Position numbers and translations under genes: made by a program. A stretch of 64,000 nucleotides of DNA from contig CBDCZR010000019.1 of the NCBI GenBank assembly GCA_965224535.1, positions 271,527-335,526 on the forward strand. The letters are read 5' to 3'. This document shows positions 1,464-63,783 of the stretch, piece after piece. Under the pieces are notes generated by a model. The model worked only from the letters and a program-made list of their open reading frames with translations, ran no database searches and was not told where the DNA came from. Numbering within the stretch: position 1 is the stretch's first letter; every line of letters begins with the position of its first letter. The DNA is from Verrucomicrobiales bacterium (GTDB taxonomy: Bacteria; Verrucomicrobiota; Verrucomicrobiia; Verrucomicrobiales; DEV007).

Positions 1464-1901
1464 CCGGCCGCCGTGCGAGCGAGGAGGCTCGATGAGGCGG
1501 AGGCGTTCGATCCAAACGCCTTCTTCAACAAACCATCGTCAGGCGCTCGCTGGTGGTAACTTCCGGCATGGCGAAGGGCGGGCTGGGCACCGGTTTCCGC
1601 AGGGGTTTCGGATTTCGGGCTTCAGCCCACGGTATCGGCGGCGCGAGCGGATGCGGGTTTTCGCGGTTCGCCGTGGCCGAAATGCTCCAGGGCGAGAGCG
1701 TGCCCCGGATTCCCACGGCAACGCAGCCTGACAACACCAAACCAGCGAGGATTCGGCTCAACCAGAGAGCCCAAAATGGCGCGCGTCGGCGGTTTTGCGT
1801 CACGAGCCAGTTTGCGCGCAATCGAGCCCCCTGTCCTCCAATTTCGGGTTAGGATTTCGGGCATCGAGCCTCGGCTTTCGAGTGCCAAGCTTCGGATTTC
1901 C

Positions 1902-3863: not shown

Positions 3864-3948
3864 GCGTCAATTGCGTCAATTGAGTGGGAAAGTGCGGAAA
3901 ATTCGCGTCCCCTTTGGACGTTCGCAACCCCTCAATTGCTTCATCTCC

Positions 3949-4302
3949 ATGACCGTTCAGCAACTCAACGACCAAGCTCCGTTCACCACCAAGGACGGCT
4001 CCACCATCCGCAGCATCCTGGATTCCACCAACGCGCCGGTTCGAAATCAGAGCCTGGCCGAGGCTAGCCTCCCGGCAGACTGCACGACGGATCGGCACTT
4101 TCACAAGCTCGCCGAGGAATTCTACTTTATCCTGGAAGGCGAGGGAACCATGGAAATCGACGGCGAAACGCGCCAGGTTCAAACCGGTGACGCCATTCTC
4201 ATCCCGGCAGGTTCATGGCACCAGATCCGCGCCGCCAAGAGCCTGCGTTTTCTCTGCTGTTGCGCCCCGCCTTACGCGCATGAGGACACTTACTTCGCGT
4301 AG
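3949..4302 (+). CDS. cupin-domain protein (cupin_2-like)
   Basis: Conserved cupin motifs HFHKLAEEFYFILEGEG...GDAILIPAGSWHQI. ATG at 3949 chosen; the longer ORF start at 3823 overlaps the convergent upstream gene. Confidence 0.7.
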   Translation: MTVQQLNDQAPFTTKDGSTIRSILDSTNAPVRNQSLAEASLPADCTTDRHFHKLAEEFYFILEGEGTMEIDGETRQVQTGDAILIPAGSWHQIRAAKSLRFLCCCAPPYAHEDTYFA

Positions 4303-7300
4303 TCGCGCCGGAAAAAGAGGAAGAACAACACCGGGCACAACGCCAACGTCAGCAAGGTGGCGAAACCCAGCCCGAACATCATCGCAAACGCCATGGAACT
4401 CCACATTCCACCGCCGCCGAATGCCAAGGGGCAAAGGCCGATGATGGTGGTGATGGTGGTCATGAGAATCGGCCGGAGCCGCGATTTCGCCGCGGCGACG
4501 ATGGCGTCCTCCAAGTTCAAGTCTCCATTTTCCAGCTTCGCATCCGTTTCGTCGATCAGCAGGATGGCGTTGTTGACGATGATGCCGAGAAGCGCGATCA
4601 TCCCTAACAGGGTCATAAATCCGAACGAGGAGCCGGTCAGCAGCAGGCCCGGAACCACCCCGATCATCATCGGCGGGATGGTCAGCACGATGATCGCGAA
4701 GCGGCGCAAGCTGTTGAACTGGCCGACCAGGATGAGCGCCAGCGCGCTGAGCGAAATGGGCATGGCCGCGGCGATGGATGCCTGGGCTTGGGCGCTCTCT
4801 TCTTGCTCCCCGCCGTACTCAATGCGGTAGCCGCGTGGCCAATCCGCGCTGCCGGTTAGCTTGGCCAGACGAGGCTGAATTTCCGCCAACGCGTCGCTGG
4901 AAAATCGCCCGCGCACCCTTCCCTTCACCGTCATCGTGCGGATGGTGTCCTTGCGCTGGATGGAGCCGGGCAAAAACTCGACGCCGGCCTCGGCAATTTG
5001 ACTCAGCGGGACGGTGCCCTCGCTGATGAAGATGGGCAAATCAGCGATGCGATCCGGTTTTTCGCGATAATCCTCGCGCGAGCGCATCACCATGGGAATG
5101 GCGTCTTCACCCTCGTGAAACGTGGAAAAATTCAGCCCGCTGAATTGCAGGTTCAGGCTTTCAGCGATGCTGCTGGTGGTTAGGCCCAACCGGGCGGAGC
5201 GAACGGGATCGGGATCGATGCTGACCTGCTTGACCCACGGGCCCCAGTCGTCGCGAACGTCAAACATGCCGGTTACCGCCTGCACTTCGCCAATGATGCG
5301 GTCGCGCAGGGTGTAGAGGGTGTGCATGTCAGGGCCGGAGAGGCGAATTTGGATGGGATCGCCCACCGGCGGGCCATTTTCCAGGGCTTTGGCGACAACG
5401 CGGGCCGCGGGAAGCCGGTTTTCGGCAAAATCGTGAACGCTGGCGACGAGCGCCTGGATTTCCTCCGGCTCAGCGGAATGCGTTAGGACCGAAAGGAAGG
5501 CGTAGCCTGAATTTGGCGGCTCCGGGGCCAACGCGAGATACCAGCGTGGACCGCCATCGCCAATCCAGGCCGACACGTGGCGCACTTTTTCCGCATGCTC
5601 GCCCAACAGCCAATCTTCCAGCTCGGCGACGCGTTTTTCGGTTTCGGCGATGTCCGTGCCCAAGGGCAGCTCAAAGTCGATCACGAACTGGCCGCGTTCG
5701 TTAGGCGGAAAGAAAATGTTGGGCACCTTGCTGAAGAGCATCAGTGCGCCGGCGGTTAGCAGCAAAATAAGCAGCGGGTAGGCCCAACGCATCTTGATGA
5801 GCAGGCGCAGCACTTTTTCGTAAGGCGCGTAAAGACGGTTGAGCCCGCGCCCCACCAGCGTGTCGCGCTTCAGCGGTTTGAGGAAGTAGTAGCAGCAGAG
5901 TGGGATGATGGTGACCGACAAAACCCAGCTACCCAGCAACGTAAGCGTCACAACCGCGAACAGGCTGTAGGTGAACTCGCTGGTTTCGCCGCTGGCCAGC
6001 GCAATGGTCGAAAACGCAGCGATCGTCGTCCCGCTGGCCGCCAGCAGCGGAATCATGAGGTCCTTGACCGCGCCGATGACCGCATCGCGCCGCGCTTCGC
6101 CCTGATTCAGCCGAACCAGGATCTGCTCACTGACGACCACGGCGTTGTCCACCAGCAATCCCAGCGCAATGATGAGCGCGGCGATCGACATCGTCTCCAG
6201 CGCCACGCCAAAACTCGGCATCAGCGCAAAGGCCACCAGAATCGCCGACGGAACCAGAATTCCGACGACGATCGAAATTCGCCAACCGGCGAAAAGCAGC
6301 ATCACCAGCACCACGAAGAAGAATGCCTGGCCCAGGTTAACCACGAAGCTGTTCACCGACTTGCTGATGTACTCCGGCTGGAAAAACATGCGCTCGATAT
6401 CCAGGCCAACCGGCAAATCCTGACGAATTTCGGCCAATTTCGCCTCGATGCGCTCCCCAACCTCTGTCACCACGCCGCCTTCGACCATGGATACGGCAAT
6501 GCAGACGACGCGTTGGCCGTTGAAATGCGCCAGCGCGATGGGCGGGTCTTCGTAACCGCGACGCACGTCGAAGAGATCTGCAACCCGGACGCTGGTTGCC
6601 TCACCGGGAATGGTTAGGCGGTAATTTCCCAGTTCCTCCAAATTTTCGAATTCGCCCAAGGTGACGAGGCTGTAACGCTCCGGGCCAAATCGCACGTTTC
6701 CGCTGGATGACACCGCGTTCTGGTTGTTGATGATGCCGGCGATCCGGGTTGGCGAAGCGCCGTAAGCCGCCAGCTCGCTGCTGGAGAATTCCAGGAAAAC
6801 GCGCTCCTCCTGCTCTCCGTGGAAATCGACCTTGCCCACGCCGTCGATGGCCAGGAGATCGTCGCGGATTTCTTCGGCGTGGCTGAGCATTTCTCGGTAG
6901 GCGAAGCCATCGCTGGTCAGCGCATAGATGTAGGGGTAAACGTCGCCGTAATCGTCGTCGATCATCGGCTCGTAGGCGCCAACCGGCAGGCGGACTTCGG
7001 CGATTTTGTTGCGCATGTCCGTCCAAATGTCCTCCATGTCGAAATACTCTTCGCCCACCTCCACGATGATGATGGACAGGCCGGGTTTGGAGATGGAAAT
7101 GAGGTCGGCCATCTCCGGCATTTGGCGCAGCGCCTGTTCCAGCGGCTCGGTCACCTCTTGCTCCACCTGCACCGTCGTGCGGCCCGGATATTGGGTGATG
7201 ATCTGGGCGTTTCGGATGGTGAATTCCGGGTATTCCAGGCGGCTGATGGTAAAAAACGTCGCCACCCCAAACAACAACGCCGCCACGTAGATAACGAGCG

Positions 7301-10333: not shown

Positions 10334-10747
10334 ATGCGACTGCCATTCTTCAAGCCGAATCGTTTTGAACCAGACTTCCCGATCATCCCCTTGTTCACCA
10401 CCGAGGAGGAAGCTCGCCAATTGCTCAATCAGCATGCCGAAGTGGAGGAGGAAGGTCCTGAGAGTGATTCAACGATCGCGCAAAAGCTCTTGGTCGCCCA
10501 GACACCCGAAACCCGAATCACGGCAGGAATCTGGGATGGGCGCGTTCGATTCACGAATTATCTGACCGAGCACTTCAACAAGAACGACAATTTGAAGGGA
10601 AAGAAGCTGGGTTGGTTCGTCGAGTATTATGGCGGCTCACAGGAATTTGAAGAACCGATGACACGGATACATGATCTTCTGGCGCAATCCCAAGAAGAAG
10701 ATCAGGATTGTATTTGGGCTGCATATGGGCCCAGTTCGAATCATTGA
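10334..10747 (+). CDS. hypothetical protein (acidic, no motif) in a locally lower-GC stretch
   Basis: 137-aa ORF with protein-like composition; the stretch from about 10200 to 10800 is visibly more AT-rich than its flanks. Confidence 0.35.
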   Translation: MRLPFFKPNRFEPDFPIIPLFTTEEEARQLLNQHAEVEEEGPESDSTIAQKLLVAQTPETRITAGIWDGRVRFTNYLTEHFNKNDNLKGKKLGWFVEYYGGSQEFEEPMTRIHDLLAQSQEEDQDCIWAAYGPSSNH

Positions 10748-10803
10748 CGAAGACCCGGAGCACTGGCCAGAACCTGAAAACAAAGAAGCCTAACAAATCA
10801 GCT

Positions 10804-11685
10804 ATGGCCGACGACGAAGAAAAATCCGACAAAATCCGGGTCAGCGCCTACGAATTGATGACCCTGCTAGGTTCGGTGAAACCTTGCCTCTCCCAGAAAT
10901 TCAAGGACATCCTGGACGAAGAACGCGCCAAGCCGGAGTACGCGGAATATTCCGAAGAACAGGCCTGGGGCCTGGCGTTTCGCTACCTGGCAACCCAACG
11001 GCAGGATTCCTTCGACCTGCGCAACAAGGATGACGCGGTCGCCTTGCGCCTGATGCCCTATTTTTTGGGCGAAGACGGGTTGCCCGTCGATAAAAAGGCA
11101 TTGTTCAAGCGGTTCGAACCTGAGAACGCCCGACTCGATCTGCACGACAAAGGCGACCACGCGATGATGGAGATCAGTTCCTGTGACGGCGACCGCGAAT
11201 ACCAAACCACCATGCGCATGGACAAGAACGATCCCGACAAAAAGCCGTCCTACACCACCCAATTCATCGGCGGCGACCGCACGCGGGACCTGACCGGGAA
11301 CCAAATCGACGAAAAGCTGCGAATTTTGAAGATGAAGGTGCTGGAAACCGAGGATTTCCGCGTGTCCTTCGAGCACTACGTGGCTGAGTTCGCCGAAGAC
11401 GAGGAATTCATGGAACTGGGCCGCTCCTCCACCAAAGCGCCGCGGCTCAGGGCCCAATTGCGCAATATTTCCAAGCGCCTGTTTCCGGATGGCAACCACA
11501 AGGTCACTCAATTCCGGCTAAAGCACCTGGCCAACCATCGTTTCGTGCACGGCACGGCCCTTGTCAGCGGCCGGCGAACCATGCTCTTCTTTTTTCAGGA
11601 TACGGGATTTGGGATGGGCGCGTTGGAGGACTTTGTGGGCACTCACTACGTGCGTCTCACCATCGCCGCCAAGCCGGAGGACTGA
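10804..11685 (+). CDS. hypothetical protein
   Basis: ATG at 10804 (MADDEEKSDKIRV...). Varied composition, whereas the antisense ORF 10867..11511 is L/V/G-rich junk. Confidence 0.45.
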   Translation: MADDEEKSDKIRVSAYELMTLLGSVKPCLSQKFKDILDEERAKPEYAEYSEEQAWGLAFRYLATQRQDSFDLRNKDDAVALRLMPYFLGEDGLPVDKKALFKRFEPENARLDLHDKGDHAMMEISSCDGDREYQTTMRMDKNDPDKKPSYTTQFIGGDRTRDLTGNQIDEKLRILKMKVLETEDFRVSFEHYVAEFAEDEEFMELGRSSTKAPRLRAQLRNISKRLFPDGNHKVTQFRLKHLANHRFVHGTALVSGRRTMLFFFQDTGFGMGALEDFVGTHYVRLTIAAKPED

Positions 11686-11696
11686 GGTTGCTCGCC

Positions 11697-11775
11697 GGTC
11701 AGATGATCTCCGCGATTGGCCGCCCCTCGTCCAACAAATGCACCGGCCGGCCGGTGAAATCCTCGAACGTGACCT
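11697..11775. repeat. 79-bp direct repeat, copy 1; a duplicated copy of the 3' end of the DUF1501 gene at 12863..14194
   Basis: 78 of 79 nt identical to 12861..12939 (single difference tccaac versus tctaac). Confidence 0.9.
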
Positions 11776-12421
11776 AGTAGATCTTGGCCAATTCTCCGCG
11801 TCGCTGCCGCTCAAAGTGACACTCGGCAATGCCGTTGGGTTGGTGGTTTCCTCCAGGGGGCCGTTTGAGCTTCAAATTGGGCAAATCCTCCGGAAACGCC
11901 AAAAGCTCGCAAAGTAGTGACTGCGCCTCTGACGAGGCATTCGCGGTCAGCAGTCGAATCAGGCCAAGGAGCCGCGACCGGAAAAGAATCAGCGACCTTC
12001 GATTCAATTGGCACATTTCGATGAGCCGTACCCCTTCGACGCTCGAAGCCGCCAGAGTGCCATCATCCTGAAGCTGCAGGTGGCGATTCAATTCCTGGTG
12101 CTCGGGATCCAAGGGCAATTCGCGATCTTGGCGGGCGGCATTGCAGGTGCAACAGGCGTAGAGGAGGTTTCCGTAGACGCAGATCAAATCCGCGCGGATA
12201 GTGCGAGGGATGCGATGTTCGACGCTGAACGCGCGTTCGCCGTTGGCATCCCATCGCCCGCGGCACAGGCAGTAGACACAACGAAAGGAGAATTCATCTC
12301 GCAGCCATGGTTTGAACGATTGCGGATTTTCGTAGCCGGCCGGTCCATGTTTCCGGTGTTGGGGACGTTCCGGATACCGAAACAACCTGGCAGCGACGGT
12401 TTCCAGCGTTTGTCCATTCAT
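11774..12421 (-). CDS. HNH endonuclease-family protein
   Basis: Motifs CVYCLCRG ... FSVEHRIPRT ... NLLYACCTCNAARQD (CxxC...H...CxxCN). ATG at 12421 overlaps the upstream gene's stop as ATGA. The stop codon abuts the end of repeat copy 1. Confidence 0.65.
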   Translation of the reverse strand: MNGQTLETVAARLFRYPERPQHRKHGPAGYENPQSFKPWLRDEFSFRCVYCLCRGRWDANGERAFSVEHRIPRTIRADLICVYGNLLYACCTCNAARQDRELPLDPEHQELNRHLQLQDDGTLAASSVEGVRLIEMCQLNRRSLILFRSRLLGLIRLLTANASSEAQSLLCELLAFPEDLPNLKLKRPPGGNHQPNGIAECHFERQRRGELAKIY

Positions 12422-12789
12422 CCATTTGCGGTGGGTTTCAACACCTGAGCCACACGCTCTTCGAACTGGTCGAGCCAATCCAGCTTTCCGCGATCGATGA
12501 CTTCAAGTTCCGTTTCGGAGAGGGCTTGAAGCGCGGCTAGTTCCCGGGTTTCTGGCTCGGTCAGACCACGATCATACTTTTGGTCGATCAGGTCCAGACG
12601 CCGACAGTTGAGTTCATCATTGGTAGGCCGATTGGGAGGTTGGGTAGCTTCGGTCAAAATCCATTTTGCCCACTGATCCCACGGAACGGCACGCGATTCC
12701 GCCTGGGAACGGAGGGCATCCAACAACTGGTCATCGATGGCAAGGGTCGCACCAATGTCGCACCTTAGAAGAGCGCTGGAAATATGCAA
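12418..12789 (-). CDS. ribbon-helix-helix (CopG/antitoxin-like) protein, translationally coupled to the HNH gene
   Basis: ATLAIDDQLLDALRSQAESRAVPWDQWAKWILTEA fits a beta-strand plus two helices RHH fold. Confidence 0.45.
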   Translation of the reverse strand: MHISSALLRCDIGATLAIDDQLLDALRSQAESRAVPWDQWAKWILTEATQPPNRPTNDELNCRRLDLIDQKYDRGLTEPETRELAALQALSETELEVIDRGKLDWLDQFEERVAQVLKPTANG

Positions 12790-12860
12790 ATTCCTGAAAG
12801 GAGCCTCGAAGAATCACTCAAGGCCCAAATCGACCGGCTAGCCGCAGGCGAGTGTGACGC

Positions 12861-12939
12861 GGTCAGATGATCTCCGCGATTGGCCGCCCCTCGTCTAACA
12901 AATGCACCGGCCGGCCGGTGAAATCCTCGAACGTGACCT
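12861..12939. repeat. 79-bp direct repeat, copy 2; the native in-frame 3' end of the DUF1501 gene
   Basis: Encodes the C-terminus ...VTFEDFTGRPVHLLDEGRPIAEII followed by the stop. Confidence 0.9.
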
Positions 12940-14194
12940 TGCGGTGATCGATTCCCAGCACGTGGTAGATGGTCGCCAGCACGTCGCTGGGTTTCAGCGG
13001 CCGTTCGACGGGGTGCTGGGCTTTGGAATTCGTCGCGCCGATGACTTGGCCCGTTTTTAACCCGCCACCGGCCAAAACCACGCTCATGGCGTTGCCCCAG
13101 TGATCGCGGCCGGGAATGGGGATGCCGGGTTGGCCGGAATTCAGCTTCGGGGTGCGGCCAAATTCGCCCATGATGACGACCAACACGTCGTCGAGCATTC
13201 CGCGGTCGCTCAAATCCTGCATCAGTCCGCCAACGGCCAGGTCCAGGTAGGGCAGGCGATCTTCCATGGCCACCTTGATCTTGGAGTGATTGTCCCAGTG
13301 CGGCATGTCCACGGTTACGAAGCGCACGCCGGCTTCCACCACGCGGCGGGCCATGAGGGTATAGTGGCCCCAGGGTCCCCGGCCGTAGGAATCGCGAATT
13401 TTCGGGTCCTCCTTCTCCATGTCGAAGGCTTCGCGGGCGCGGCTGCCCATGATCATGTCCACCGCGTTTTGGTTGAACTGATCCATCGTGTCCATCAAGC
13501 CGCTTTGGTCCAGCCGGCGGTTGAGTTGATCCAGCGAGCCAAGCAAATTCATCCGCGAAGAGGTCCGGTCCACGTCACCGGAGACGTTGTCGAGAAACGT
13601 CGGGGCCTTGATCGCGGGCGTGTACCTCCCGGCCAGGTATTTTTGCTTCATGTTCACCTGAAACGGGTCGTAGGCCGGTCCCAGGTAAGCGCCGCCCATG
13701 TATCCCGGGTAAATGTAGACGCTGTGCGCCGCCGGCAGGCCCACGTAGGCCGGCATGCCTGTTTTCACCGAGCCTTTCAGCTTGGACACGCAGGAGCCCA
13801 CGGACGGGTACATCTGCGCCTTGTTTGCCGCGGAACTGCCGAAACGGCCCGTCAGCATCCAGTGCGCGGCGGCAAAGTGGTCCCCGTTGTTGTGGTGGAC
13901 GGAGCGCAAGAAGCACATTTTGTCGGCATGCTTGGCGTGATGCGGTAGCATTTCGGAAATGCGGATGCCCGGCACGTTGGTGGGCATGTCTCCCCAAGGG
14001 CCGCGATACTCGCTGGGAGCGCCCGGTTTGGGATCGTAAGTTTCCAACTGGCTGGGTCCGCCGTCCAGCCACAGCAAAATCACGGATTTTCCGTTGTCGG
14101 CGGTTTGCGCTTCGGCTTGCAATTTGGCCAAATTCGCGCTGGTGAGGCCAAATGCGCTCAATGCGCCGGCTTTCAACGCAGTGCGGCGAGTCAT
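12863..14194 (-). CDS. DUF1501 domain protein (sulfatase-like fold, Tat signal)
   Basis: MTRRTALKAGALSAFG twin-arginine leader; HWDNHSKI..., DHWG..., GEFGRTP motifs typical of DUF1501. Confidence 0.85.
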   Translation of the reverse strand: MTRRTALKAGALSAFGLTSANLAKLQAEAQTADNGKSVILLWLDGGPSQLETYDPKPGAPSEYRGPWGDMPTNVPGIRISEMLPHHAKHADKMCFLRSVHHNNGDHFAAAHWMLTGRFGSSAANKAQMYPSVGSCVSKLKGSVKTGMPAYVGLPAAHSVYIYPGYMGGAYLGPAYDPFQVNMKQKYLAGRYTPAIKAPTFLDNVSGDVDRTSSRMNLLGSLDQLNRRLDQSGLMDTMDQFNQNAVDMIMGSRAREAFDMEKEDPKIRDSYGRGPWGHYTLMARRVVEAGVRFVTVDMPHWDNHSKIKVAMEDRLPYLDLAVGGLMQDLSDRGMLDDVLVVIMGEFGRTPKLNSGQPGIPIPGRDHWGNAMSVVLAGGGLKTGQVIGATNSKAQHPVERPLKPSDVLATIYHVLGIDHRKVTFEDFTGRPVHLLDEGRPIAEII

Positions 14195-14410
14195 GCCCTG
14201 GCAATTGCGGCCAGCGCGGGTTGAGGGGTTAGAGATGGTGAGCATAGCTTGTTTCTCCCGGGGTTTTCCCCTACACGTCGGGAGAAATCACCCCCTTTCA
14301 AGTCGCGGAACGCGCAAAATTTCGGGAACTGGCTTGGGGGGCGCAGAAAAATCCTTGGCAGGGCGAATTTCCCCCCTTATGTCAGCGGGGTTAACGCGAT
14401 ATTTCCCACG

Positions 14411-58246: not shown

Positions 58247-58936
58247 TTAGGAATGCCCGGAATCCTGGCGCCGGCGCGAGGGCAAAAATGGCGCAACCAG
58301 GAAAATTAGCGCCACGAGCAGCAAAATCGCCGAACTGGGCCGCGCGAGCAGGTAACCTGGGCTGGAGATCGCCAAGCCTTGCACCAAATTCACCTCCGCC
58401 AGTGGCTGGAGGACGAATCCGAGCACGAACGGCGCGAGGGGGATGCCGAAGCGGTTCATCGCCAGGCCCAGCAGGCCGAAGCCGAGCATGGACCACACGT
58501 CGAACATGCGGTTGGCCAGGGCGTAGCTGCCTACCACGCAAAAAATCAGCACCGCCGGGATGAGCAGCCAGCGCGGGATTTCCAGCAGTTTGCGCGCTAA
58601 TCCCGCGCCGAACCACATGAGCGCAAACATGACCAGGTTGGCGATGAGATAGGCGCTGGTGATGGTCGAGACGACTTCCGGGTTGTTGTCGAAAAGCAGC
58701 GGACCGGGCGTCAGGCCGTGCAAAATCAGCGCGCCGAGCAAAATGACGTCGATGACGCTGCCGGGGATGCCCAGGGCGATGAGCGGGACCAATGCGCCGC
58801 CGACGGTGGCATTGTTCGCGGCTTCACTGGCCACGACGCCGGAATCCGCGCCTTGGCTGAATTTTTCGCGGTCGCGTTTCCAACAGTAAAGATGTTTGAA
58901 TGTAAATTTGCTGCAAAGCCATGTTCCAACAGTCAA
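58247..58936 (-). pseudogene. truncated 3' fragment of a tctA paralogue (the C-terminal ~200 aa only)
   Basis: 58281..58876 aligns by eye to 61023..61618 (the tctA 3' end) at roughly 90-95% identity. Homology stops abruptly at 58876 and is replaced by AT-rich sequence. Confidence 0.75.
58281..58876. repeat. imperfect direct repeat (about 596 bp), copy A of the tctA 3' end
   Basis: See pseudogene above; begins at the stop-codon region and ends at ...gaatttttcgcggtcgcg. Confidence 0.8.
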
Positions 58937-58973
58937 ATTGTTTTAGTTTTAAAATAAATTATCTGGGAAAATG

Positions 58974-59363
58974 TCACGTCCCCGAGGTAACCCAAGCGAA
59001 GTTAGCCAGGTCATCCCTTATCCAGATTGACAGAACGATCCACGGATCACCGTTATCCAAAGTATATACCCAGCTGACAAATTCTTCTGAAATCGGCTCA
59101 ATTGAATCAGGCGGACCAAAGATCCTGAGAATCTCCTTTGACTTGAGCTGATTGACAGGTTTACCTTCCAAGGTAGAGGACGGCAAAAGCCTACTCAATT
59201 TTTCGTAAGCTTTAAGTCTCTCTACTCGATTCGTTCGAAAAGTAGCTGAAGCCGCTATTTCTGAGTCTGATAACTCAATTGAAACCTGGCCGTTTACAAT
59301 GGTTGAAAGCAGAAAAAATAAGGCGGCGAGAATTCCGAGCCCGCGCAAGGATGTTAAGTTCAT
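58974..59363 (-). CDS. small secreted protein of unknown function, encoded in the low-GC island
   Basis: Signal peptide MNLTSLRGLGILAALFFLLSTIVNGQ; AT-rich codon usage unlike the host; its ATG overlaps the upstream stop (ATGA). Confidence 0.5.
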   Translation of the reverse strand: MNLTSLRGLGILAALFFLLSTIVNGQVSIELSDSEIAASATFRTNRVERLKAYEKLSRLLPSSTLEGKPVNQLKSKEILRIFGPPDSIEPISEEFVSWVYTLDNGDPWIVLSIWIRDDLANFAWVTSGT

Positions 59364-60436
59364 TTGATTTCAAAGGTTGGTGTATTAGGTGGATTTGCCA
59401 CATCAATGTCGTCCGCTTGGTATTCCCAAGTTAGCTCAAGCTTTGTTGTAAGGTCGTGGCCCCTCACTTTGAGCGTTTGTGATTTCGTTCCAAAAAGTTT
59501 TTGTTTCAAGGCGAAAGCCTTAGCACCGAAACTGTTATTCTTTGGGATGCCAAGCTTGAACGCCTTCCATTGTGCCCTATCTGCGGCCGTCGCAATTAGT
59601 CTCTTTCCAACAGTTTCTCCTAGGGACTTTTGATCTTCGATCTTTCCATCTTTAAGTTCGCCTGATGGCAACCTAATCGGTACATTCAAACGAGATTTGC
59701 CGGCGATCGTCCCTTTTCCTACCGTCTTTATGGTTTCCTTCACAACTCTCATTCCGTCAAAAACGGAATCCAATGTCTCACCGTATTGATCTTTCAATGT
59801 GAATACGAGTACTTTGGTAGCTGCTGTGTGGTACATAGTATCAGTTGTCGTTCCGTTTGGTACATCGATTTCGCCAACAAAGGTCCATTTCTGGCCTGGA
59901 AGGCTTGAAGCGTTTTCATACGCAGTTTTTTCTTCTACTCCATCTTTATTCTTTTTCCATTCAGCGGTAAATGTCTTTGGAACCACAACCTGAACGGGCA
60001 CAGTAAAATCCTGACCCATTACCGTGCCAACCAACTCAAGGTCATTGCTTGTTTGCGGATTCAGCGTTTCTTTGATTCCTTCGATTTTCAAGGTTATCTT
60101 ACCCGTTGAAGTGTTGGGTTGACCTTCAATCTTTACATCCGCATCACCGCCAGTTGTTCCAGGGATAACAAAGGTTGCATTTGGGGCTTCAATGGGCGGC
60201 GTAACAGTTGCAATTACTTCCTTCACCAGCGGAGTGTCATCTTGGGCCTCACCTTCAGCTTTGATGTAACCCGTCTTAATGAGCGTTTCACTGTATGTGA
60301 TAGAGACTACAGCAGCACTGCTCGTGCTAGTGGCGGACGACAATGAACTGCTGCTGCTTGATGAACTGCTGCTGCTTGATGAACTGCTGCTGCTTGATGA
60401 ACTGCTGCTGCTTGATGAACTACTGCTGTTTGGCAT
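59360..60436 (-). CDS. beta-rich protein with a 30-residue N-terminal poly-Ser tract, encoded in the low-GC island
   Basis: MPN followed by S30 encoded by an 18-bp tandem repeat; T/V/K/G-rich beta-like remainder; AT-rich codon usage. Confidence 0.5.
   Translation of the reverse strand: MPNSSSSSSSSSSSSSSSSSSSSSSSSSSSSLSSATSTSSAAVVSITYSETLIKTGYIKAEGEAQDDTPLVKEVIATVTPPIEAPNATFVIPGTTGGDADVKIEGQPNTSTGKITLKIEGIKETLNPQTSNDLELVGTVMGQDFTVPVQVVVPKTFTAEWKKNKDGVEEKTAYENASSLPGQKWTFVGEIDVPNGTTTDTMYHTAATKVLVFTLKDQYGETLDSVFDGMRVVKETIKTVGKGTIAGKSRLNVPIRLPSGELKDGKIEDQKSLGETVGKRLIATAADRAQWKAFKLGIPKNNSFGAKAFALKQKLFGTKSQTLKVRGHDLTTKLELTWEYQADDIDVANPPNTPTFEIK
60341..60431. repeat. 18-bp tandem repeat (gatgaactgctgctgctt, about 5 copies, last copy degenerate) encoding poly-Ser
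   Basis: Four perfect 18-bp units at 60360..60413 plus flanking partial or degenerate units. Confidence 0.9.
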
Positions 60437-60997
60437 GAGAGGATCCTTTCCAGATGACTATCAAGTTTTGAAGTTACAGCATTCTGTACACCGGATCGCG
60501 AATTGTTAATAGGAATTTCCTATCGCAAGATAAAATAGTGGGTCGGACCGGAGAGTTGGAGGTTGAGGTACTACCGCTGGAAAATTTTGAGTACACCCTC
60601 TGAAATTAGGTGATTTAGTGAGGTAAAGAAAATTGTAACAACGATGTATGAGCGACCTATGATGAAAATCTCAGAAATTGCAGGGAGACGCAATTTTTAA
60701 CCCCTTCCGCGTCGGAAACGGGTTTCATGGCATGATTTGGCCAGATTTAGGGGGCAAAGTCAAGGATTTTAGCCATTTTAGCCGATTTTGTGATTGCCTT
60801 GAAGGGAATTTCTCCGTTTTCCGGTCGCCGGCTGGTTGGTCTGGATAGACCGGATGGATGCTAACGCCGTTTACAGTGTGCGTGCGATAAGTGGCGCTAC
60901 GCATTGGCAGCAACGCGCCTTGGTTGCCTTGCTTGACGGAAACTCTTTCTGATAGGTGACGTAGCCCTCGTTATATTGCAGGCATCACTCGTCCAGG

Positions 60998-62434
60998 CTA
61001 ACCCGATGGTCGCCAGCGCCTGGGCAAAAACGGCGCAACCAGGAAAATTAGCGCCACGAGCAGCAAAATCGCCGAACTGGGCCGCGCCAGCAGGTAACCC
61101 GGGCTGGAGATCGCCAAGCCTTGCACCAAATTCACCTCGGCCAGTGGTTGGAGGACGAATCCTAACACGAACGGCGCGAGGGGAATGCCGAACCGGTTCA
61201 TCGCCAGGCCCAGCAGGCCGAAGCCGAGCATCGACCACACGTCAAACATCCGGTTGGCCAGGGCGTAGCTGCCGACTACGCAAAAAATCAGCACCGCCGG
61301 GATGAGCATCCAGCGCGGAATTTCCAGCAGCTTGCGCGCCAATCCCACCCCAAACCACATCAGCGCAAACATGACCAGGTTGGCGACGAGATAGGCGCCG
61401 GTGATGGTCGAGACCACCTCCGGGTTGTTGTCGAAAAGCAGCGGCCCCGGCGTCAGGCCGTGCAAAATCAGCGCGCCGAGCAAAATGACGTCGATGACGC
61501 TGCCGGGGATGCCCAGGGCGATGAGCGGAACCAAAGCGCCGCCGACCGTGGCGTTGTTCGCGGCTTCACTGGCCACGACGCCGGAATCCGCGCCTTGGCC
61601 GAATTTTTCGCGGTCGCGAGCCACTCCTTTCGCCGCGCCGTAGGCGAGGAGCGATCCCACGTTTGCGCCAATTCCCGGCAAAACGCCGACAAAACTGCCG
61701 ATCATCGACGAGCGGATCAAATTCAGGGCCTGTTGCTTCCATTCGGCCAATTTCAGCAGTTTTCCGCCGCTTCCTTCGATCCGCTGGCCCGCTTCGTGCG
61801 GGTTGGCGGCCAGGCGAAACACCTCGCTGACGGCGAAAAGGCCGATCAACACCGGCAAGAGCCGAAAACCGTCGTCCAGCTCGGCAAAACCCAGGGTCAG
61901 CCGTGGTTTTGGGTTGGCGGGATTCGCGCCCGGCAAGGCGAAGAGCATGCCCAGAAAGACGCTGAGCAAGCCGCGTGCCAAATTTCCGCGGCTAATCGCG
62001 GCCACCAGCACCAGGGCCAGCATCACCAGGCTAAAGTAGTCGAACGGGTGCATGCGAATGGCCAGCGCGGCCACGGGCCGGGCCAGGGCCACCAACACCA
62101 GCCAGGAGAGGATTCCGCCCGCCAGCGAGGCCACGATTCCCAGCGCCAGGGCTCTTCGCGGCCGGCCTCCCGCAGCCATGGGATGCGCGTCCAGCGTCGT
62201 CATCATGGACGCCGGCGTCCCCGGCATTTTCAGCAACGTCGCGGTAATCAGACCCCCGCTCACCGACCCCACGTACATGGCCACGAGCAGCGCCAACGCC
62301 GGTTCGCGCTCCATCGCGAAGGTGAGGGGAACAGTCAGGGTGATGGCCATGGCCCCGGTCAAGCCGGGAATGGCGCCGACGACGATTCCCACGAAAACGC
62401 CGAGAAAAACCCAGGGAAGCAGATCGGGAGTCAT
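60998..62434 (-). CDS. tctA: tripartite tricarboxylate transporter, TctA large permease
   Basis: About 478 aa from MTPDLLPWVFLGVF; typical TctA helices (GALVPLIALGIPGS...); start overlaps the tctCB stop (ATGA at 62431..62434). Confidence 0.85.
   Translation of the reverse strand: MTPDLLPWVFLGVFVGIVVGAIPGLTGAMAITLTVPLTFAMEREPALALLVAMYVGSVSGGLITATLLKMPGTPASMMTTLDAHPMAAGGRPRRALALGIVASLAGGILSWLVLVALARPVAALAIRMHPFDYFSLVMLALVLVAAISRGNLARGLLSVFLGMLFALPGANPANPKPRLTLGFAELDDGFRLLPVLIGLFAVSEVFRLAANPHEAGQRIEGSGGKLLKLAEWKQQALNLIRSSMIGSFVGVLPGIGANVGSLLAYGAAKGVARDREKFGQGADSGVVASEAANNATVGGALVPLIALGIPGSVIDVILLGALILHGLTPGPLLFDNNPEVVSTITGAYLVANLVMFALMWFGVGLARKLLEIPRWMLIPAVLIFCVVGSYALANRMFDVWSMLGFGLLGLAMNRFGIPLAPFVLGFVLQPLAEVNLVQGLAISSPGYLLARPSSAILLLVALIFLVAPFLPRRWRPSG
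61023..61618. repeat. imperfect direct repeat, copy B (within intact tctA)
   Basis: Partner of 58281..58876. Confidence 0.8.
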
Positions 62435-63783
62435 GGGAGGTCGATGATGAGCACGTTTTGGAAGAGAAATTGCAGGCCGATCGCCAAAAAGACGCCGGCG
62501 CCGGCCACGATTCCGCGCGTTCGCAGGTTTGGGGCCAAAATCCAGCCGGCGGCGGCTGCGAAGAGCCCGGTGGCGAGCCAAAACGGGAGCCAGTGGAGGC
62601 TGAGGAGGCCCAGATACGCGCTCAGCAGGCCGACGATCGCCGCCGGCCGCCAATTTCGACGGGTTTTAACCGCGCTGGGGGCGATTTTTTGGCTTAAACC
62701 GAGAAAAACGCTCAAACCCGCGAAAATTCCCACACCGGTCAAAATTGCGCCGAAAACCGGCAAACCGCCCTTATTTTGCTCGGCGTCGTCCACTTTCAAT
62801 CCGACGATTTGCGCGCGTTTCGTCTCAATTTCCGCCAAAAGCGCCTCGCCGCGCAAAAACACGGGATCCACCGATTTTTCAGCGTATTTTTTGCGCAGCC
62901 AGTCGGAATTCATCGCGCGTTCGAGCAAATCCGCGATTTTTTCGATCCGGTCCGGCGGGGTTCCCTTCGGCGCCCACCAAAATTGGGTCGTGCCCGTCAC
63001 CAAATCGATTCCCTCCTCCCGCGCCGTCGGCGTTCCGGCCAATTTCGGGTGGCGTTCCGGTCCCAGATAGGCCAGCGCCTTCAACCCCCGCCGCGTCTCC
63101 GTTTTTCGAAACTGGAGGTATTCGGAAACGGAAAAAATCGACAAATCCACGTGCCCGCCGGCCAATTTTTCGAACCGGTCGGCCCCACCTTGCAGAGGCA
63201 CCATGCCAAACCGCGCCGAACCGTGCTTCTGCTCGAGCTGCAGGCCGATGAAATGGCTCGGAGCGCCCAAATTCATGCCGTATTTGACCTCGCCCGGCGT
63301 TTCCGCGGCTTCGTCCAGGGCTTGAGCGACAGACGTCCAACGTCCCTCCGGTCCGGTGCAAACCACGGTGTGGCTTGCGCCGGTGGAAGCGATCGGCACG
63401 AACGCCTCCGGCCCGTAAACGTGCCTCACTTGCTTGGCCGTCATGATGGCGTCGTGCAAGTTGAGGATGGTGTAGCCGTCAGGACGCGCGTTTTTCGCCC
63501 TGCGGCTGCCGATGGTGCCTCCAGCGCCCGGGACGTTGATGATGACCAACGGATGCGGGGAAAGATCGTCCCGGCGGATGGATTCTTGCACCACGCGAGC
63601 CAAGGAATCGCTTGCACCGCCCGGCCCAAATGGAACAATGACCTTGATAGCTTTGCGCGGAAATTCGTCCAAATTCTCCGAACCTGCTGAGTTCATGCAC
63701 AAACCCCAAAAAATTGCGAGCGCAAATCCCCTTGCATGTGGCCTCGTTAGAGTGTGTAGATAGGCTATGAAGCGTGTTTTCAT
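62431..63783 (-). CDS. tctC: fusion of TctC (Bug-family periplasmic binding protein) with a TctB-like 4-TM small permease
   Basis: N-terminal signal peptide and KAIKVIVPFGPGGASDSLARVV...PGAGGTIG...PDGYTIL (TctC/Bug). The C-terminal ~115 aa comprise four hydrophobic helices (LPVFGAILTGVGIFAGLSVFLGLS ... GIVAGAGVFLAIGLQFLF). Confidence 0.75.
   Translation of the reverse strand: MKTRFIAYLHTLTRPHARGFALAIFWGLCMNSAGSENLDEFPRKAIKVIVPFGPGGASDSLARVVQESIRRDDLSPHPLVIINVPGAGGTIGSRRAKNARPDGYTILNLHDAIMTAKQVRHVYGPEAFVPIASTGASHTVVCTGPEGRWTSVAQALDEAAETPGEVKYGMNLGAPSHFIGLQLEQKHGSARFGMVPLQGGADRFEKLAGGHVDLSIFSVSEYLQFRKTETRRGLKALAYLGPERHPKLAGTPTAREEGIDLVTGTTQFWWAPKGTPPDRIEKIADLLERAMNSDWLRKKYAEKSVDPVFLRGEALLAEIETKRAQIVGLKVDDAEQNKGGLPVFGAILTGVGIFAGLSVFLGLSQKIAPSAVKTRRNWRPAAIVGLLSAYLGLLSLHWLPFWLATGLFAAAAGWILAPNLRTRGIVAGAGVFLAIGLQFLFQNVLIIDLP

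What the first reader, a model, noticed from the sequence alone, without database searches (positions are those of the whole stretch)
11697..12939. RHH + HNH-endonuclease cassette bracketed by 79-bp direct repeats that duplicate the 3' end of a DUF1501 gene
The sequence 11697..11775 is 78 of 79 nt identical to 12861..12939, which is the in-frame C-terminal coding end of the DUF1501 gene at 12863..14194. Between the repeats lie exactly two translationally coupled genes (ATGA overlap at 12418..12421). One is a ribbon-helix-helix protein and the other an HNH nuclease (CxxC...H...CxxCN). The HNH stop codon abuts the inner edge of repeat 1. This looks like a small site-specific insertion of about 1085 bp into the 3' end of a host gene that preserves the host ORF by duplication, behaviour reminiscent of homing or integrative elements. 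The RHH/HNH pair also resembles an antitoxin/toxin module. A 79-bp duplication is much longer than the target-site duplications made by IS elements.
Basis: seen in the sequence. Interest (0 to 1): 0.7.

Follow-up and report, generated by a model that had tools for sequence, protein, structure and literature searches.

The report
Nuclease gene cassette inserted with host-gene duplication
A two-gene nuclease-plus-regulator cassette sits after a host gene whose last 80 bases are repeated on its far side, a recombinase-free way of inserting genes previously described only for restriction-modification systems.

Summary
Window 11696-11775 and 12860-12939 are an 80-nt direct repeat (79/80). The right copy is the true 3' end of a DUF1501 gene. 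The 1,084 bp between them hold only two overlapping genes: a small partner protein with a weak RHH signal, and an intact HNH nuclease resembling PtuB of Septu and retron Ec78.

This gene pair is conserved in about 500 loci of Planctomycetota, Verrucomicrobiota, Acidobacteriota and others, always in unrelated neighbourhoods. About 11% of loci with enough flank (10 of 93) carry long, locus-specific direct duplications of host sequence (49-1,400 bp). These usually cover the 3' end of the gene upstream on the same strand. Shifted control positions gave 1 of 123.

The same window holds a second case: a 608-nt duplication of the TctA 3' end around a cassette with no nuclease.

In the three long coding repeats that could be tested, the two copies differ mostly at synonymous sites. 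They look like two functional alleles. This favours single-crossover homologous integration of a circular piece (gene fragment plus cassette) over a staggered cut.

It matches the "insertion with long target duplication" known for restriction-modification units, with a new cargo. No empty site was found. It is not site-specific and not a homing endonuclease.

The parts
12863..14245 (-). Host gene encoding a DUF1501 protein (460 aa), intact. Its last 77 nt lie inside the right repeat copy.
   Evidence: Pfam DUF1501 5e-101 over the full length. The 85%-identical orthologue P0122/L005 aligns to the same stop.
12860..12939 (.). Direct repeat, gene copy: the last 25 codons, the stop and 3 nt of DUF1501.
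11776..12859 (-). Inserted cassette of 1,084 bp: a 70-nt leader, the partner gene and the HNH gene, and nothing else.
   Evidence: Sharp junctions on both sides. G+C is 0.54-0.59, against 0.61-0.63 in DUF1501. Copies in other genomes share homology over the same extent, from just upstream of the partner gene to the HNH stop.
12418..12789 (-). Partner gene (up to 123 aa). The N-terminus looks like a ribbon-helix-helix (RHH). The C-terminus is a helical domain conserved across the family and is the predicted antitoxin or regulator part.
   Evidence: Weak CopG_antitoxin hit at E 0.016. RHH families hit 5-6 of 32 family members. Invariant residues R63 R64 L67 L76 E80 L87. Homologous to the upstream ORF in 78 of 79 loci. 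The single-sequence AlphaFold2 (AF2) model is poor, pLDDT 63.
11774..12421 (-). HNH nuclease resembling PtuB (215 aa), full length, with the active-site and zinc-finger residues intact. Its start overlaps the partner stop (ATGA).
   Evidence: PADLOC PtuB 2e-13. NCBIfam PtuB and Pfam HNH both score below their cut-offs. AF2 pLDDT 93.6. Foldseek top hits are PtuB of retron Ec78 and Septu. Family alignment.
11696..11775 (.). Direct repeat, orphan copy of the DUF1501 3' end. It lies 10 nt from the stop of the convergent gene 10708..11685(+).
61011..61618 (.). Second case, gene copy: a 608-nt repeat within the 3' part of TctA (60998..62653, minus strand). The last 13 nt of TctA, including the stop, lie beyond the repeat and differ from the tail that follows the orphan copy.
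   Evidence: Window self-BLAST, 94.1% identity with no gaps. Pfam TctA 8e-140.
58877..61010 (-). Second inserted cassette of 2,134 bp. It holds two overlapping genes, 59360..60436 (358 aa) and 58974..59363 (129 aa). Neither is a recognisable nuclease or recombinase.
   Evidence: No Pfam or PADLOC hits.
58269..58876 (.). Second case, orphan copy of the TctA 3' part (ORF 58247..58936, a TctA fragment).
   Evidence: The copies differ at 27 synonymous and 7 non-synonymous codons, with no stop codon or indel.

Best explanation
Window 11776-12859 is a foreign two-gene module: a small RHH-type partner plus a PtuB-like HNH nuclease. It most likely works as a toxin-antitoxin-like or defence module. It was inserted at the very end of the DUF1501 gene by 'insertion with long target duplication'. 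The 80 bp that contain the gene's last 25 codons and its stop codon now flank the insert, so DUF1501 stays intact and an orphan copy lies downstream.

Shown:
- the repeat and the intact host gene;
- the two-gene module as a conserved unit found in many unrelated contexts;
- flanking host duplications that recur across the family, differ by locus and vary in length;
- no transposase or integrase among the annotated genes near either cassette;
- a second cassette without a nuclease in the same window, with the same architecture.

Inferred mechanism: a circular, or circularised, DNA carried the cassette plus a fragment of the neighbouring host gene from a related donor. It integrated by one homologous (Campbell-type) crossover, which duplicates the homologous fragment. 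Only events whose fragment spans a gene end leave a working host gene. That would explain why the duplicated piece is usually the 3' end of the upstream gene, or the 5' end of the downstream gene.

The resulting repeat-cassette-repeat structure can loop out again as a circle, or amplify in tandem. The nuclease/antitoxin pair would favour keeping this unstable structure through addiction or defence benefit. It would not itself catalyse the insertion.
For: - Repeat and anatomy.
- Conserved pair: 79 of 85 loci have an upstream ORF of at least 50 aa ending near the HNH start, usually overlapping it, and 78 of 79 of these are homologous to the window's partner. There are 486 loci in GTDB species representatives, with several copies in some genomes.
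- Locus-specific two-copy direct repeats tightly flank the cassette in WIN (this window's own cassette), L046, L004, L012, L085, L057, L067, L080, L023, L020, L032, L021 and L161.
- Frequency: 11 of 66 real positions against 1 of 109 shifted control positions in the same loci (p=1e-4). A conservative pooled count gives 10 of 93 against 1 of 123 (p=0.001).
- The duplicated pieces are 3' ends of ordinary genes on the same strand as the cassette.
- Junctions are sharp and carry no shared motif.
- Cassettes 89-93% identical sit in non-homologous flanks. The shared stretch runs from just upstream of the partner gene to the HNH stop.
- A second cassette without a nuclease has a 608-nt duplication of the TctA end.
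- Differences between repeat copies are biased to synonymous sites, with no stop or indel in the 'orphan': TctA 27 synonymous to 7 non-synonymous codons (P=3e-6), ComM in L057 17 to 2 (P=1e-5), L021 12 to 5 (P=0.01). This is expected if the two copies come from two functional alleles.
- Tandem or relic cassettes (L075, L034) fit amplification through the repeats.
- Literature precedent: PMC2853133 and PMC3874152.
Against: - No empty site was found for this or any family locus. The insertion is inferred from structure and recurrence.
- The window's own 80-nt repeat has a single mismatch, which is synonymous. The allele test therefore has no power for this locus.
- Four other repeats (L067, L034, L032, L012) show no codon periodicity.
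- The synonymous bias could also arise after insertion, if the gene copy was later replaced by an allele from another strain.
- Eighty bp, or 49 bp in L004, is a short substrate for RecA.
- In three independent comparisons the right end falls within 0-3 nt of the HNH stop codon. Random circular fragments do not predict this. It could reflect a defined element end, or trimming under selection.
- L021 and L022 share a 92%-identical cassette next to a gene that is only 67-68% identical. Homology-driven targeting explains this poorly.
- No circular intermediate has been observed.
Confidence: 0.55

Rival explanations
1. The cassette is an autonomous element driven by its own nuclease. The HNH, guided or restrained by the RHH partner, makes offset nicks or breaks in the target. 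Repair by fill-in or joining then inserts the cassette and duplicates the stretch between the cuts.
For: Long target duplications are enriched around nuclease-bearing units: restriction-modification (RM) systems in PMC2853133, this HNH family, and a different small HNH next to ComM in L095. The right junction lies at the HNH stop codon in WIN (this window's cassette), in L016/L018 and in L030/L041. The cassette carries no other enzyme.
Against: A cassette without any recognisable nuclease shows the same architecture in the same window. Duplications range from 49 to about 1,400 bp, which is hard to produce with staggered cuts. The copies in long coding repeats look like two alleles, not one sequence copied in place. 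There are no conserved ends or target motif.
Confidence: 0.15
2. A tyrosine or serine recombinase encoded elsewhere integrates the cassette site-specifically. The att site lies in the 3' end of the host gene, as with islands in tRNA or protein-gene ends or elements mobilised in cis. The 80-bp repeat would then be attL/attR.
For: Direct repeats that restore a gene's 3' end are typical of integrase-made junctions. The repeat holds a perfect 16-nt palindrome, CACCGGCCGGCCGGTG. The ComM 3' end is a repeated insertion point in related genomes. In L087, about 150-nt repeats of equal extent separate several small cassettes.
Against: No integrase was found in the cassette or among its annotated neighbours. 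Repeat lengths and sequences differ completely between loci of the same family, and even at the same host gene: 82 nt in L095 against 1,399 nt in L057 for ComM. The palindrome is absent from the orthologue, so it is not a conserved site. The window has only two copies of the repeat.
Confidence: 0.15
3. There was no insertion. The repeat is an old local duplication, a chance arrangement, or an assembly artefact next to a resident toxin-antitoxin-like operon.
For: No empty site is available. The window probably comes from a metagenome-assembled genome.
Against: The same architecture recurs at unrelated genes in many assemblies, including very long contigs: 7.5 Mb for L021, 1.17 Mb for L004 and 425 kb for L057. 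It is about ten times more frequent than at control positions. The repeat boundaries coincide exactly with the ends of the two-gene unit.
Confidence: 0.05

Closest known systems
Insertion with long target duplication of restriction-modification gene units (Nobusato et al. 2000, Gene 259:99; Furuta, Abe and Kobayashi 2010, NAR 38:2428, PMC2853133)
   Same: A small nuclease-containing, addiction-type gene unit with no transposase or integrase. It is flanked by long, variable, locus-specific direct duplications of the target (46 to about 420 bp in that work). Some of those overlap the 3' end of a host gene. Tandem amplification through the repeats occurs. The mechanism is unknown.
   Different: The cargo here is an HNH nuclease plus an RHH-type partner, with no methyltransferase. 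The hosts are Planctomycetota, Verrucomicrobiota, Acidobacteriota and others. The published cases were proven with empty sites from a second genome, which I could not obtain. I also find that long repeats differ mainly at synonymous sites, and that a cassette without a nuclease shows the same structure.
PtuB, the HNH effector of Septu (PtuAB) and of retron Ec78/Eco7
   Same: Best sequence and fold match: PADLOC PtuB 2e-13, PDB 8ee7 by profile search, and Foldseek E 8e-5 with TM about 0.49. Same size (about 200-240 aa) and the same CxxC...H...N...CxxC core.
   Different: Only about 15% identity. NCBIfam PtuB scores 18.6 bits against a cut-off of 150. No PtuA ATPase and no retron reverse transcriptase lies next to it. 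The invariable neighbour is a small protein of about 110-140 aa.
Type II toxin-antitoxin operons with an RHH antitoxin (CopG/ParD/FitA type)
   Same: A compact bicistronic operon with overlapping stop and start codons. The small upstream protein combines an N-terminal RHH-like DNA-binding part with a conserved C-terminal part that co-occurs with the downstream enzyme. Multiple copies per genome and a patchy distribution.
   Different: I found no described TA family with a PtuB-like HNH toxin. Toxicity and neutralisation are untested. The RHH part is missing or replaced in some family members.
Campbell-type single-crossover integration (insertion-duplication, as used in the laboratory with circular DNA carrying one homologous fragment)
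   Same: The product has the same structure: the homologous fragment is duplicated on both sides of the insert. The host gene survives only if the fragment includes a gene end.
   Different: This is a natural event with no plasmid backbone. The origin of the circular intermediate is unknown.
Free-standing HNH homing endonuclease genes
   Same: An HNH nuclease gene lodged beside a host gene, with mobility suspected.
   Different: Homing copies the gene into a cleaved allele by double-crossover repair and leaves no flanking direct repeats. It targets one conserved site. Here the host genes are unrelated and a partner gene is always present.

Membership tests
Insertion with long target duplication (criteria of Furuta et al. 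2010) | Direct duplication of target sequence longer than 30 bp flanking the insert | tested here: met
   80 nt, 79/80 identical. 49-1,399 nt in other family loci.
Insertion with long target duplication (criteria of Furuta et al. 2010) | Insert shorter than 20 kb with no transposase, integrase or prophage genes | tested here: met
   The insert is 1,084 bp with two genes only. The annotated neighbours are ordinary metabolic genes.
Insertion with long target duplication (criteria of Furuta et al. 2010) | A related genome has the target once, without the insert (empty site), and both repeat copies align to it | tested here: inconclusive
   No genome closer than 85% amino-acid identity in DUF1501 was found, and that one is not syntenic. 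The empty-site pattern gave 0 hits in metagenome contigs. ComM relatives of L057 gave no clean empty site.
Insertion with long target duplication (criteria of Furuta et al. 2010) | Cargo is a restriction enzyme plus modification enzyme pair | tested here: not met
   There is no methyltransferase. The cargo is an HNH plus a small RHH-like protein.
Septu (PtuAB) | PtuB-type HNH nuclease | tested here: inconclusive
   PADLOC PtuB 2e-13 and PtuB as the top Foldseek hit. However, NCBIfam PtuB scores 18.6 bits against a cut-off of 150.
Septu (PtuAB) | Adjacent PtuA AAA-type ATPase | tested here: not met
   The neighbour is a 123-aa protein here, and a homologous small protein in 78 of 79 loci.
Type II toxin-antitoxin module | Two small co-transcribed genes, one encoding a DNA-binding antitoxin | tested here: inconclusive
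   The ATGA overlap is confirmed. The RHH is supported only by weak hits.
Type II toxin-antitoxin module | The toxin arrests growth and the partner neutralises it | not testable with these tools
   Needs expression assays.
Homing endonuclease gene | One conserved target site, and insertion without flanking duplication | tested here: not met
   Host genes differ between loci and direct repeats flank the insert.
Integrase-mediated integrative element | A tyrosine or serine recombinase gene in the element, and a fixed att core shared by its copies | tested here: not met
   No recombinase was found. No sequence is shared between the repeats of different loci.
IS element / DNA transposon | Transposase, terminal inverted repeats, and a short target-site duplication of fixed length | tested here: not met
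   No transposase is present. No inverted repeats were found at the cassette ends. Duplication length ranges from 49 to 1,399 nt.
Integron gene cassette | An attC recombination site at the cassette end, and an integron integrase or cassette array | tested here: not met
   The flanking repeat is host coding sequence conserved in the orthologue. Only by-eye inspection for attC core sites was done, and no attC model was run.

The most novel reading that the evidence does not exclude
The RHH-partner plus PtuB-like HNH pair could be a self-mobilising cassette without a recombinase. Its own nuclease would trigger insertion and generate long target duplications of variable length. That would be a nuclease-driven class of mobile element, shared in principle with mobile restriction-modification units and with small HNH cassettes such as the one beside ComM in L095.
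Probability: 0.15. Interest if true: 0.85.

Novelty: new variant of a known kind. Interest (0 to 1): 0.6.

Why it matters
How restriction-modification units insert with long target duplications, without any transposase or integrase, has been open since 2000. Three results here bear on it.

- The same footprint recurs around a different selfish or defence module, in little-studied phyla.
- It also occurs around a cassette with no nuclease.
- The two repeat copies can carry the signature of two functional alleles.

Together these point to a testable mechanism: homologous single-crossover capture of a circular piece made of a gene fragment plus a cassette. They also point to a simple genomic signature, an orphan gene end lying downstream of a small cassette, that could be used to find recent gene insertions in metagenome-assembled genomes.

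The work also defines a widespread two-gene family, a PtuB-like HNH with a small RHH-type partner, that I did not find in the defence or toxin-antitoxin catalogues or papers searched.

Tried and rejected
Empty-site searches:
- Looking up the window's own HNH protein found no indexed contig.
- The closest DUF1501 orthologue (85% amino-acid identity, a TARA scaffold) shares only the gene itself and no synteny.
- A gapped empty-site pattern found nothing in metagenome contigs.
- For L057 I traced ComM relatives. They showed that the ComM 3' end is an insertion hotspot, but downstream synteny was too poor for a clean empty site.
- Looking up HNH proteins seen on several contigs returned only the same contexts.

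Ideas rejected:
- Integron attC. The repeat is conserved host coding sequence. The match to GTTRRRY in the repeat is expected by chance.
- A larger mobile element around the cassette. Neighbours are ordinary genes, and the only tRNA in the window is 30 kb away.
- Carriage on plasmids or phages. There was one weak plasmid hit and no phage hit.
- A circular contig for L086. Its identical ends are a palindromic repeat element.
- Counting L068/L087 and L056 as target duplications. Their repeats are multi-copy families.
- Conserved terminal motifs or inverted repeats at the cassette ends. None were seen.

The single-sequence structure model of the partner was too poor to use.
Full report
**1. The observation**

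Window 11696-11775 and 12860-12939 form an 80-nt direct repeat with 79 of 80 positions identical. The only mismatch (11732 C, 12896 T) is a synonymous Leu codon change on the minus strand. Sub-patterns of the repeat occur exactly twice in the 64 kb, against none in 100 shuffles. A self-BLAST of the window finds only one other strong direct repeat (see section 6). The flanks diverge at the first base outside the repeat on both sides, so this is not part of a larger segmental duplication.

**2. Anatomy**

- The right copy covers the last 25 codons, the stop and 3 nt of a DUF1501 gene, 12863..14245 on the minus strand (Pfam 5e-101).
- An 85%-identical orthologue from a TARA scaffold aligns to the same stop. 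The right copy is therefore the native gene end and the left copy is an orphan.
- The 1,084 bp between them (11776-12859) hold a 70-nt leader and two genes with an ATGA stop/start overlap at 12418-12421.
- The TAG stop of the second gene overlaps the orphan repeat by 2 nt.
- G+C of the insert is 0.54-0.59, against 0.61-0.63 in DUF1501.

**3. The two proteins**

The downstream protein (215 aa) is an HNH nuclease.
- Pfam HNH and NCBIfam PtuB hits are below their cut-offs. PADLOC PtuB models hit at 2e-13.
- A profile of 32 homologues finds PtuB (PDB 8ee7) as its best solved relative.
- An AlphaFold2 model built with that alignment has pLDDT 93.6. Its best PDB matches are PtuB of retron Ec78/Eco7 and of Septu (E 8e-5, TM about 0.49, 15% identity).
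- C48, C51, H69, C90, C93 and N94 are invariant across the family and N85 is nearly so. The window protein is full length to the conserved C-terminal '...RGEL..Y'.

The upstream protein (up to 123 aa) has two parts.
- The N-terminus gives weak RHH signals that agree with each other. CopG_antitoxin hits at E 0.016. RHH_1, RHH_5 and FitA-like_RHH hit 5-6 of 32 family members. An antitoxin chain, 7e4j, hits at E 0.17.
- The C-terminal helical domain is the truly conserved part, with invariant R63 R64 L67 L76 E80 L87.

This is the usual layout of a type II antitoxin: a variable DNA-binding head and a partner-binding tail. That function is inferred, not tested.

**4. The pair is a conserved unit found in unrelated places**

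- About 570 homologues of the HNH were found, none above 55% identity. There are 486 loci in GTDB species representatives. Most of the 80 fetched loci are from Planctomycetota, with some from Verrucomicrobiota, Acidobacteriota and Armatimonadota. Some genomes hold 2-3 copies.
- In 79 of 85 loci an upstream ORF of at least 50 aa ends near the HNH start, usually overlapping it. In 78 of those 79 it is homologous to the window's partner.
- The neighbouring genes differ from locus to locus.
- The module is essentially absent from the plasmid and phage collections.
- I found no paper describing an RHH/PtuB-like pair.

**5. Flanking host duplications recur in the family**

I compared the 1-4 kb upstream of the partner gene with the 1-4 kb downstream of the HNH stop in every locus. 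Long direct repeats appear around many cassettes. Matches in inverted orientation stay near background: median 22 bits against 23 for direct matches, and a maximum of 56 bits.

Clean cases with exactly two copies in the locus:

| Locus | Repeat length and identity | Insert | What is duplicated |
|---|---|---|---|
| WIN (this window) | 80 nt | 1,084 nt | DUF1501 3' end |
| L046 | 286 nt, 98.6% | 1,220 nt | last 243 nt of a histidine kinase gene plus 43 nt |
| L004 | 49 nt, 100% | 2,104 nt | end of an abhydrolase gene; junction inside the stop codon |
| L012 | 161 nt, 90% | 1,108 nt | C-terminus of a Ser/Thr kinase-WD40 protein |
| L085 | 70 nt, 80% | 1,857 nt | M14 peptidase |
| L057 | 1,399 nt, 95% | 1,981 nt | last 477 nt of ComM plus about 920 nt downstream |
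| L067 | at least 390 nt | 1,235 nt | not assigned |
| L080 | 118 nt | 1,652 nt | not assigned |
| L023 | 86 nt | 1,289 nt | not assigned |
| L020 | 134 nt | 1,352 nt | not assigned |
| L032 | 150 nt | 1,873 nt | not assigned |
| L021 | 199 nt | 2,621 nt | 5' end of the downstream gene |

Wherever the duplicated piece is a gene's 3' end, that gene is upstream of the cassette and on the same strand.

Frequencies:
- With 1-kb flanks, 11 of 66 real positions carry such a repeat, against 1 of 109 shifted pseudo-cassette positions in the same loci (Fisher p=1e-4).
- An independent set from JGI metagenomes gave 3 of 29, against 0 of 14 controls.
- Removing the window itself, one duplicate locus and two multi-copy cases gives 10 of 93 against 1 of 123 (p=0.001).

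L075 has two cassettes in tandem. In L034 the repeat starts inside an HNH 3' end, which looks like a relic of tandem amplification.

The footprint also occurs on very long contigs: 7.5 Mb for L021, 1.17 Mb for L004 and 425 kb for L057. This argues against an assembly artefact.

**6. The unit that moves**

- Two cassettes from one MAG (L016 and L018) are 93% identical over 993 nt while their flanks are unrelated. The shared stretch starts at the ribosome-binding site 12 nt before the partner's ATG and ends 3 nt after the HNH stop.
- L030 and L041 share 1,058 nt at 89.5% identity, ending inside the stop codon.
- In the window the right junction is also inside the stop codon (T|AG).
- In other loci the ends lie 16-205 nt beyond the stop. 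I saw no terminal motif or inverted repeat.

**7. A second case in the same window**

Window 58269-58876 and 61011-61618 are a 608-nt direct repeat, 94.1% identical with no gaps. One copy is the 3' part of TctA (60998..62653, minus strand; Pfam 8e-140). TctA belongs to a TctC/B-TctA operon. The other copy is an orphan TctA fragment. Between them lie two overlapping genes of 358 and 129 aa, with no Pfam or PADLOC hit and no sign of a nuclease or recombinase. The architecture matches the HNH case: host gene, then cassette, then an orphan copy of the host gene's end. The process therefore does not depend on the HNH cargo.

**8. What the repeat copies say about mechanism**

If a sequence were duplicated in place and the orphan then decayed freely, I estimated that roughly 60% of differing codons should be non-synonymous. 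Stops and indels should also appear. Instead:
- The TctA repeat differs at 27 synonymous and 7 non-synonymous codons. Mismatches by codon position are 7, 2 and 27. There are no stops or indels, and the differences are spread over the whole repeat (P=3e-6).
- The ComM part of the L057 repeat gives 17 synonymous to 2 non-synonymous (P=1e-5).
- L021 gives 12 to 5 (P=0.01).

In these cases the two copies look like two functional alleles brought together. That is what a single homologous crossover would produce between the chromosome and a circular DNA carrying a donor's gene fragment plus the cassette.

This model also explains three other features:
- why repeat lengths vary so widely;
- why no recombinase is present;
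- why surviving insertions duplicate a gene end, since a fragment internal to a gene would knock the gene out.

Limits:
- The window's own 80-nt repeat has one mismatch, which is synonymous, so the test has no power for it.
- Four repeats (L067, L034, L032, L012) show no codon periodicity.
- Replacement of the gene copy by another strain's allele after insertion would give the same signature.
- Right ends at the HNH stop codon, and the L021/L022 pair (cassette 92% identical, shared neighbouring gene 67-68%), are not predicted by simple homology-driven capture.

**9. Comparison with what is known**

The closest precedent is the 'insertion with long target duplication' of restriction-modification units. 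There, repeats of 46 to about 420 bp flank units with no mobility genes. Some repeats overlap gene 3' ends. Amplification through the repeats has been shown, the mechanism is unknown, and double-strand breaks are suspected (PMC2853133; PMC3874152 citing Nobusato et al. 2000). The present case fits those structural criteria except for two points. The cargo is not a restriction-modification pair, and I have no empty site.

It is not Septu, because there is no PtuA. It is not a homing endonuclease gene, because it has flanking repeats and many different targets. It is not an integrase element, an IS or an integron cassette.

**10. What failed**

No empty site was found for the window or for L057. 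Further look-ups returned only the same contexts. The structure model of the partner was poor.

**11. Verdict**

It is wrong about site specificity and homing.

My estimates:
- Insertion with long target duplication, followed by retention as a selfish or defence module: about 0.8.
- The Campbell-type mechanism specifically: about 0.45.
- The combined best explanation: 0.55.

I rate this a new variant of a known kind, with moderately high interest.

Noticed in passing
window 58247-62653: A second cassette is flanked by a 608-nt, 94%-identical duplication of the TctA 3' part. It holds two genes of 358 and 129 aa with no known domains. The present TctA gene has a different tail after the repeat ('...RRWRPSG') from the orphan copy ('...SRRRQDSGHS').
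   Followed up: yes
window 11741-11756 and 12905-12920: A perfect 16-nt palindrome, CACCGGCCGGCCGGTG, lies inside both repeat copies and encodes FTGRPVH. The scan also flags it as terminator-like. It is not conserved in the L005 orthologue, so it is probably chance. It does sit about 115-130 nt upstream of the partner gene, where an RHH operator could lie.
   Followed up: partly
L087 (same locus as L068) 1545-5045: Six copies of a roughly 150-nt unit separate small cassettes (ParE/ParD, and the partner+HNH pair). Each unit encodes about 50 aa ('...REALSLIHFLRDQ..QPQSEWLNALSSDQT.S..VRQRALQFARDWKP*') and most end at a stop codon. Differences between the copies appeared mostly synonymous by eye. 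It looks like an array built up by repeated insertions at one gene end. L056 has a similar multi-copy 384-nt family.
   Followed up: partly
L095 8456-10339; L097 7456-8662; L057 2253-10081: The 3' end of ComM is an insertion hotspot in related genomes (some ComM relatives are labelled Isosphaeraceae). L095 has a different small HNH (136 aa) plus a 97-aa partner between 82-nt copies of the ComM end, and an extra copy of an internal ComM fragment. L097 has a 325-aa gene between about 72-nt copies of the ComM end. L057 has a third ComM fragment further downstream.
   Followed up: partly
L021 2867-5885: The insert bounded by the 199-nt repeat also carries a GmrSD-like (DUF262 + HNH) type IV restriction gene upstream of the partner+HNH pair. 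The cassette is 92% identical to the one in L022, while the shared downstream DUF6079-like gene is only 67-68% identical.
   Followed up: partly
L075 3576-5622: Two HNH cassettes lie in tandem. The last 44 nt of the two HNH genes are identical and the sequence downstream is degenerately similar, which suggests amplification or recombination between cassettes.
   Followed up: no
L167 1789-1819 compared with L175 4598-5044: Two otherwise 92-97% identical loci differ by an indel immediately after the HNH stop codon: 447 nt in L175 against 31 nt in L167.
   Followed up: no
L004 3739-5004 and 7553-7861: Here the partner is a 421-aa protein with a weak GNAT acetyltransferase hit. The match to the partner profile is weak (jackhmmer E 9e-17), and which part of the protein matches was not determined. 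An orphan 102-aa DUF1501 fragment lies about 1.9 kb downstream of the HNH.
   Followed up: no
window 10334-11685: Two adjacent hypothetical genes (137 and 325 aa, no family hits, lower G+C of 0.50-0.57) share a short repeated motif (10526-10549 and 11604-11627, 88% identical). The region left of the orphan repeat may itself be foreign DNA.
   Followed up: no
L086 1-73 and 3852-3905: The contig ends are identical over 54 nt and contain a 20-nt hairpin. This is probably a dispersed palindromic repeat that broke the assembly, not a circular molecule.
   Followed up: partly
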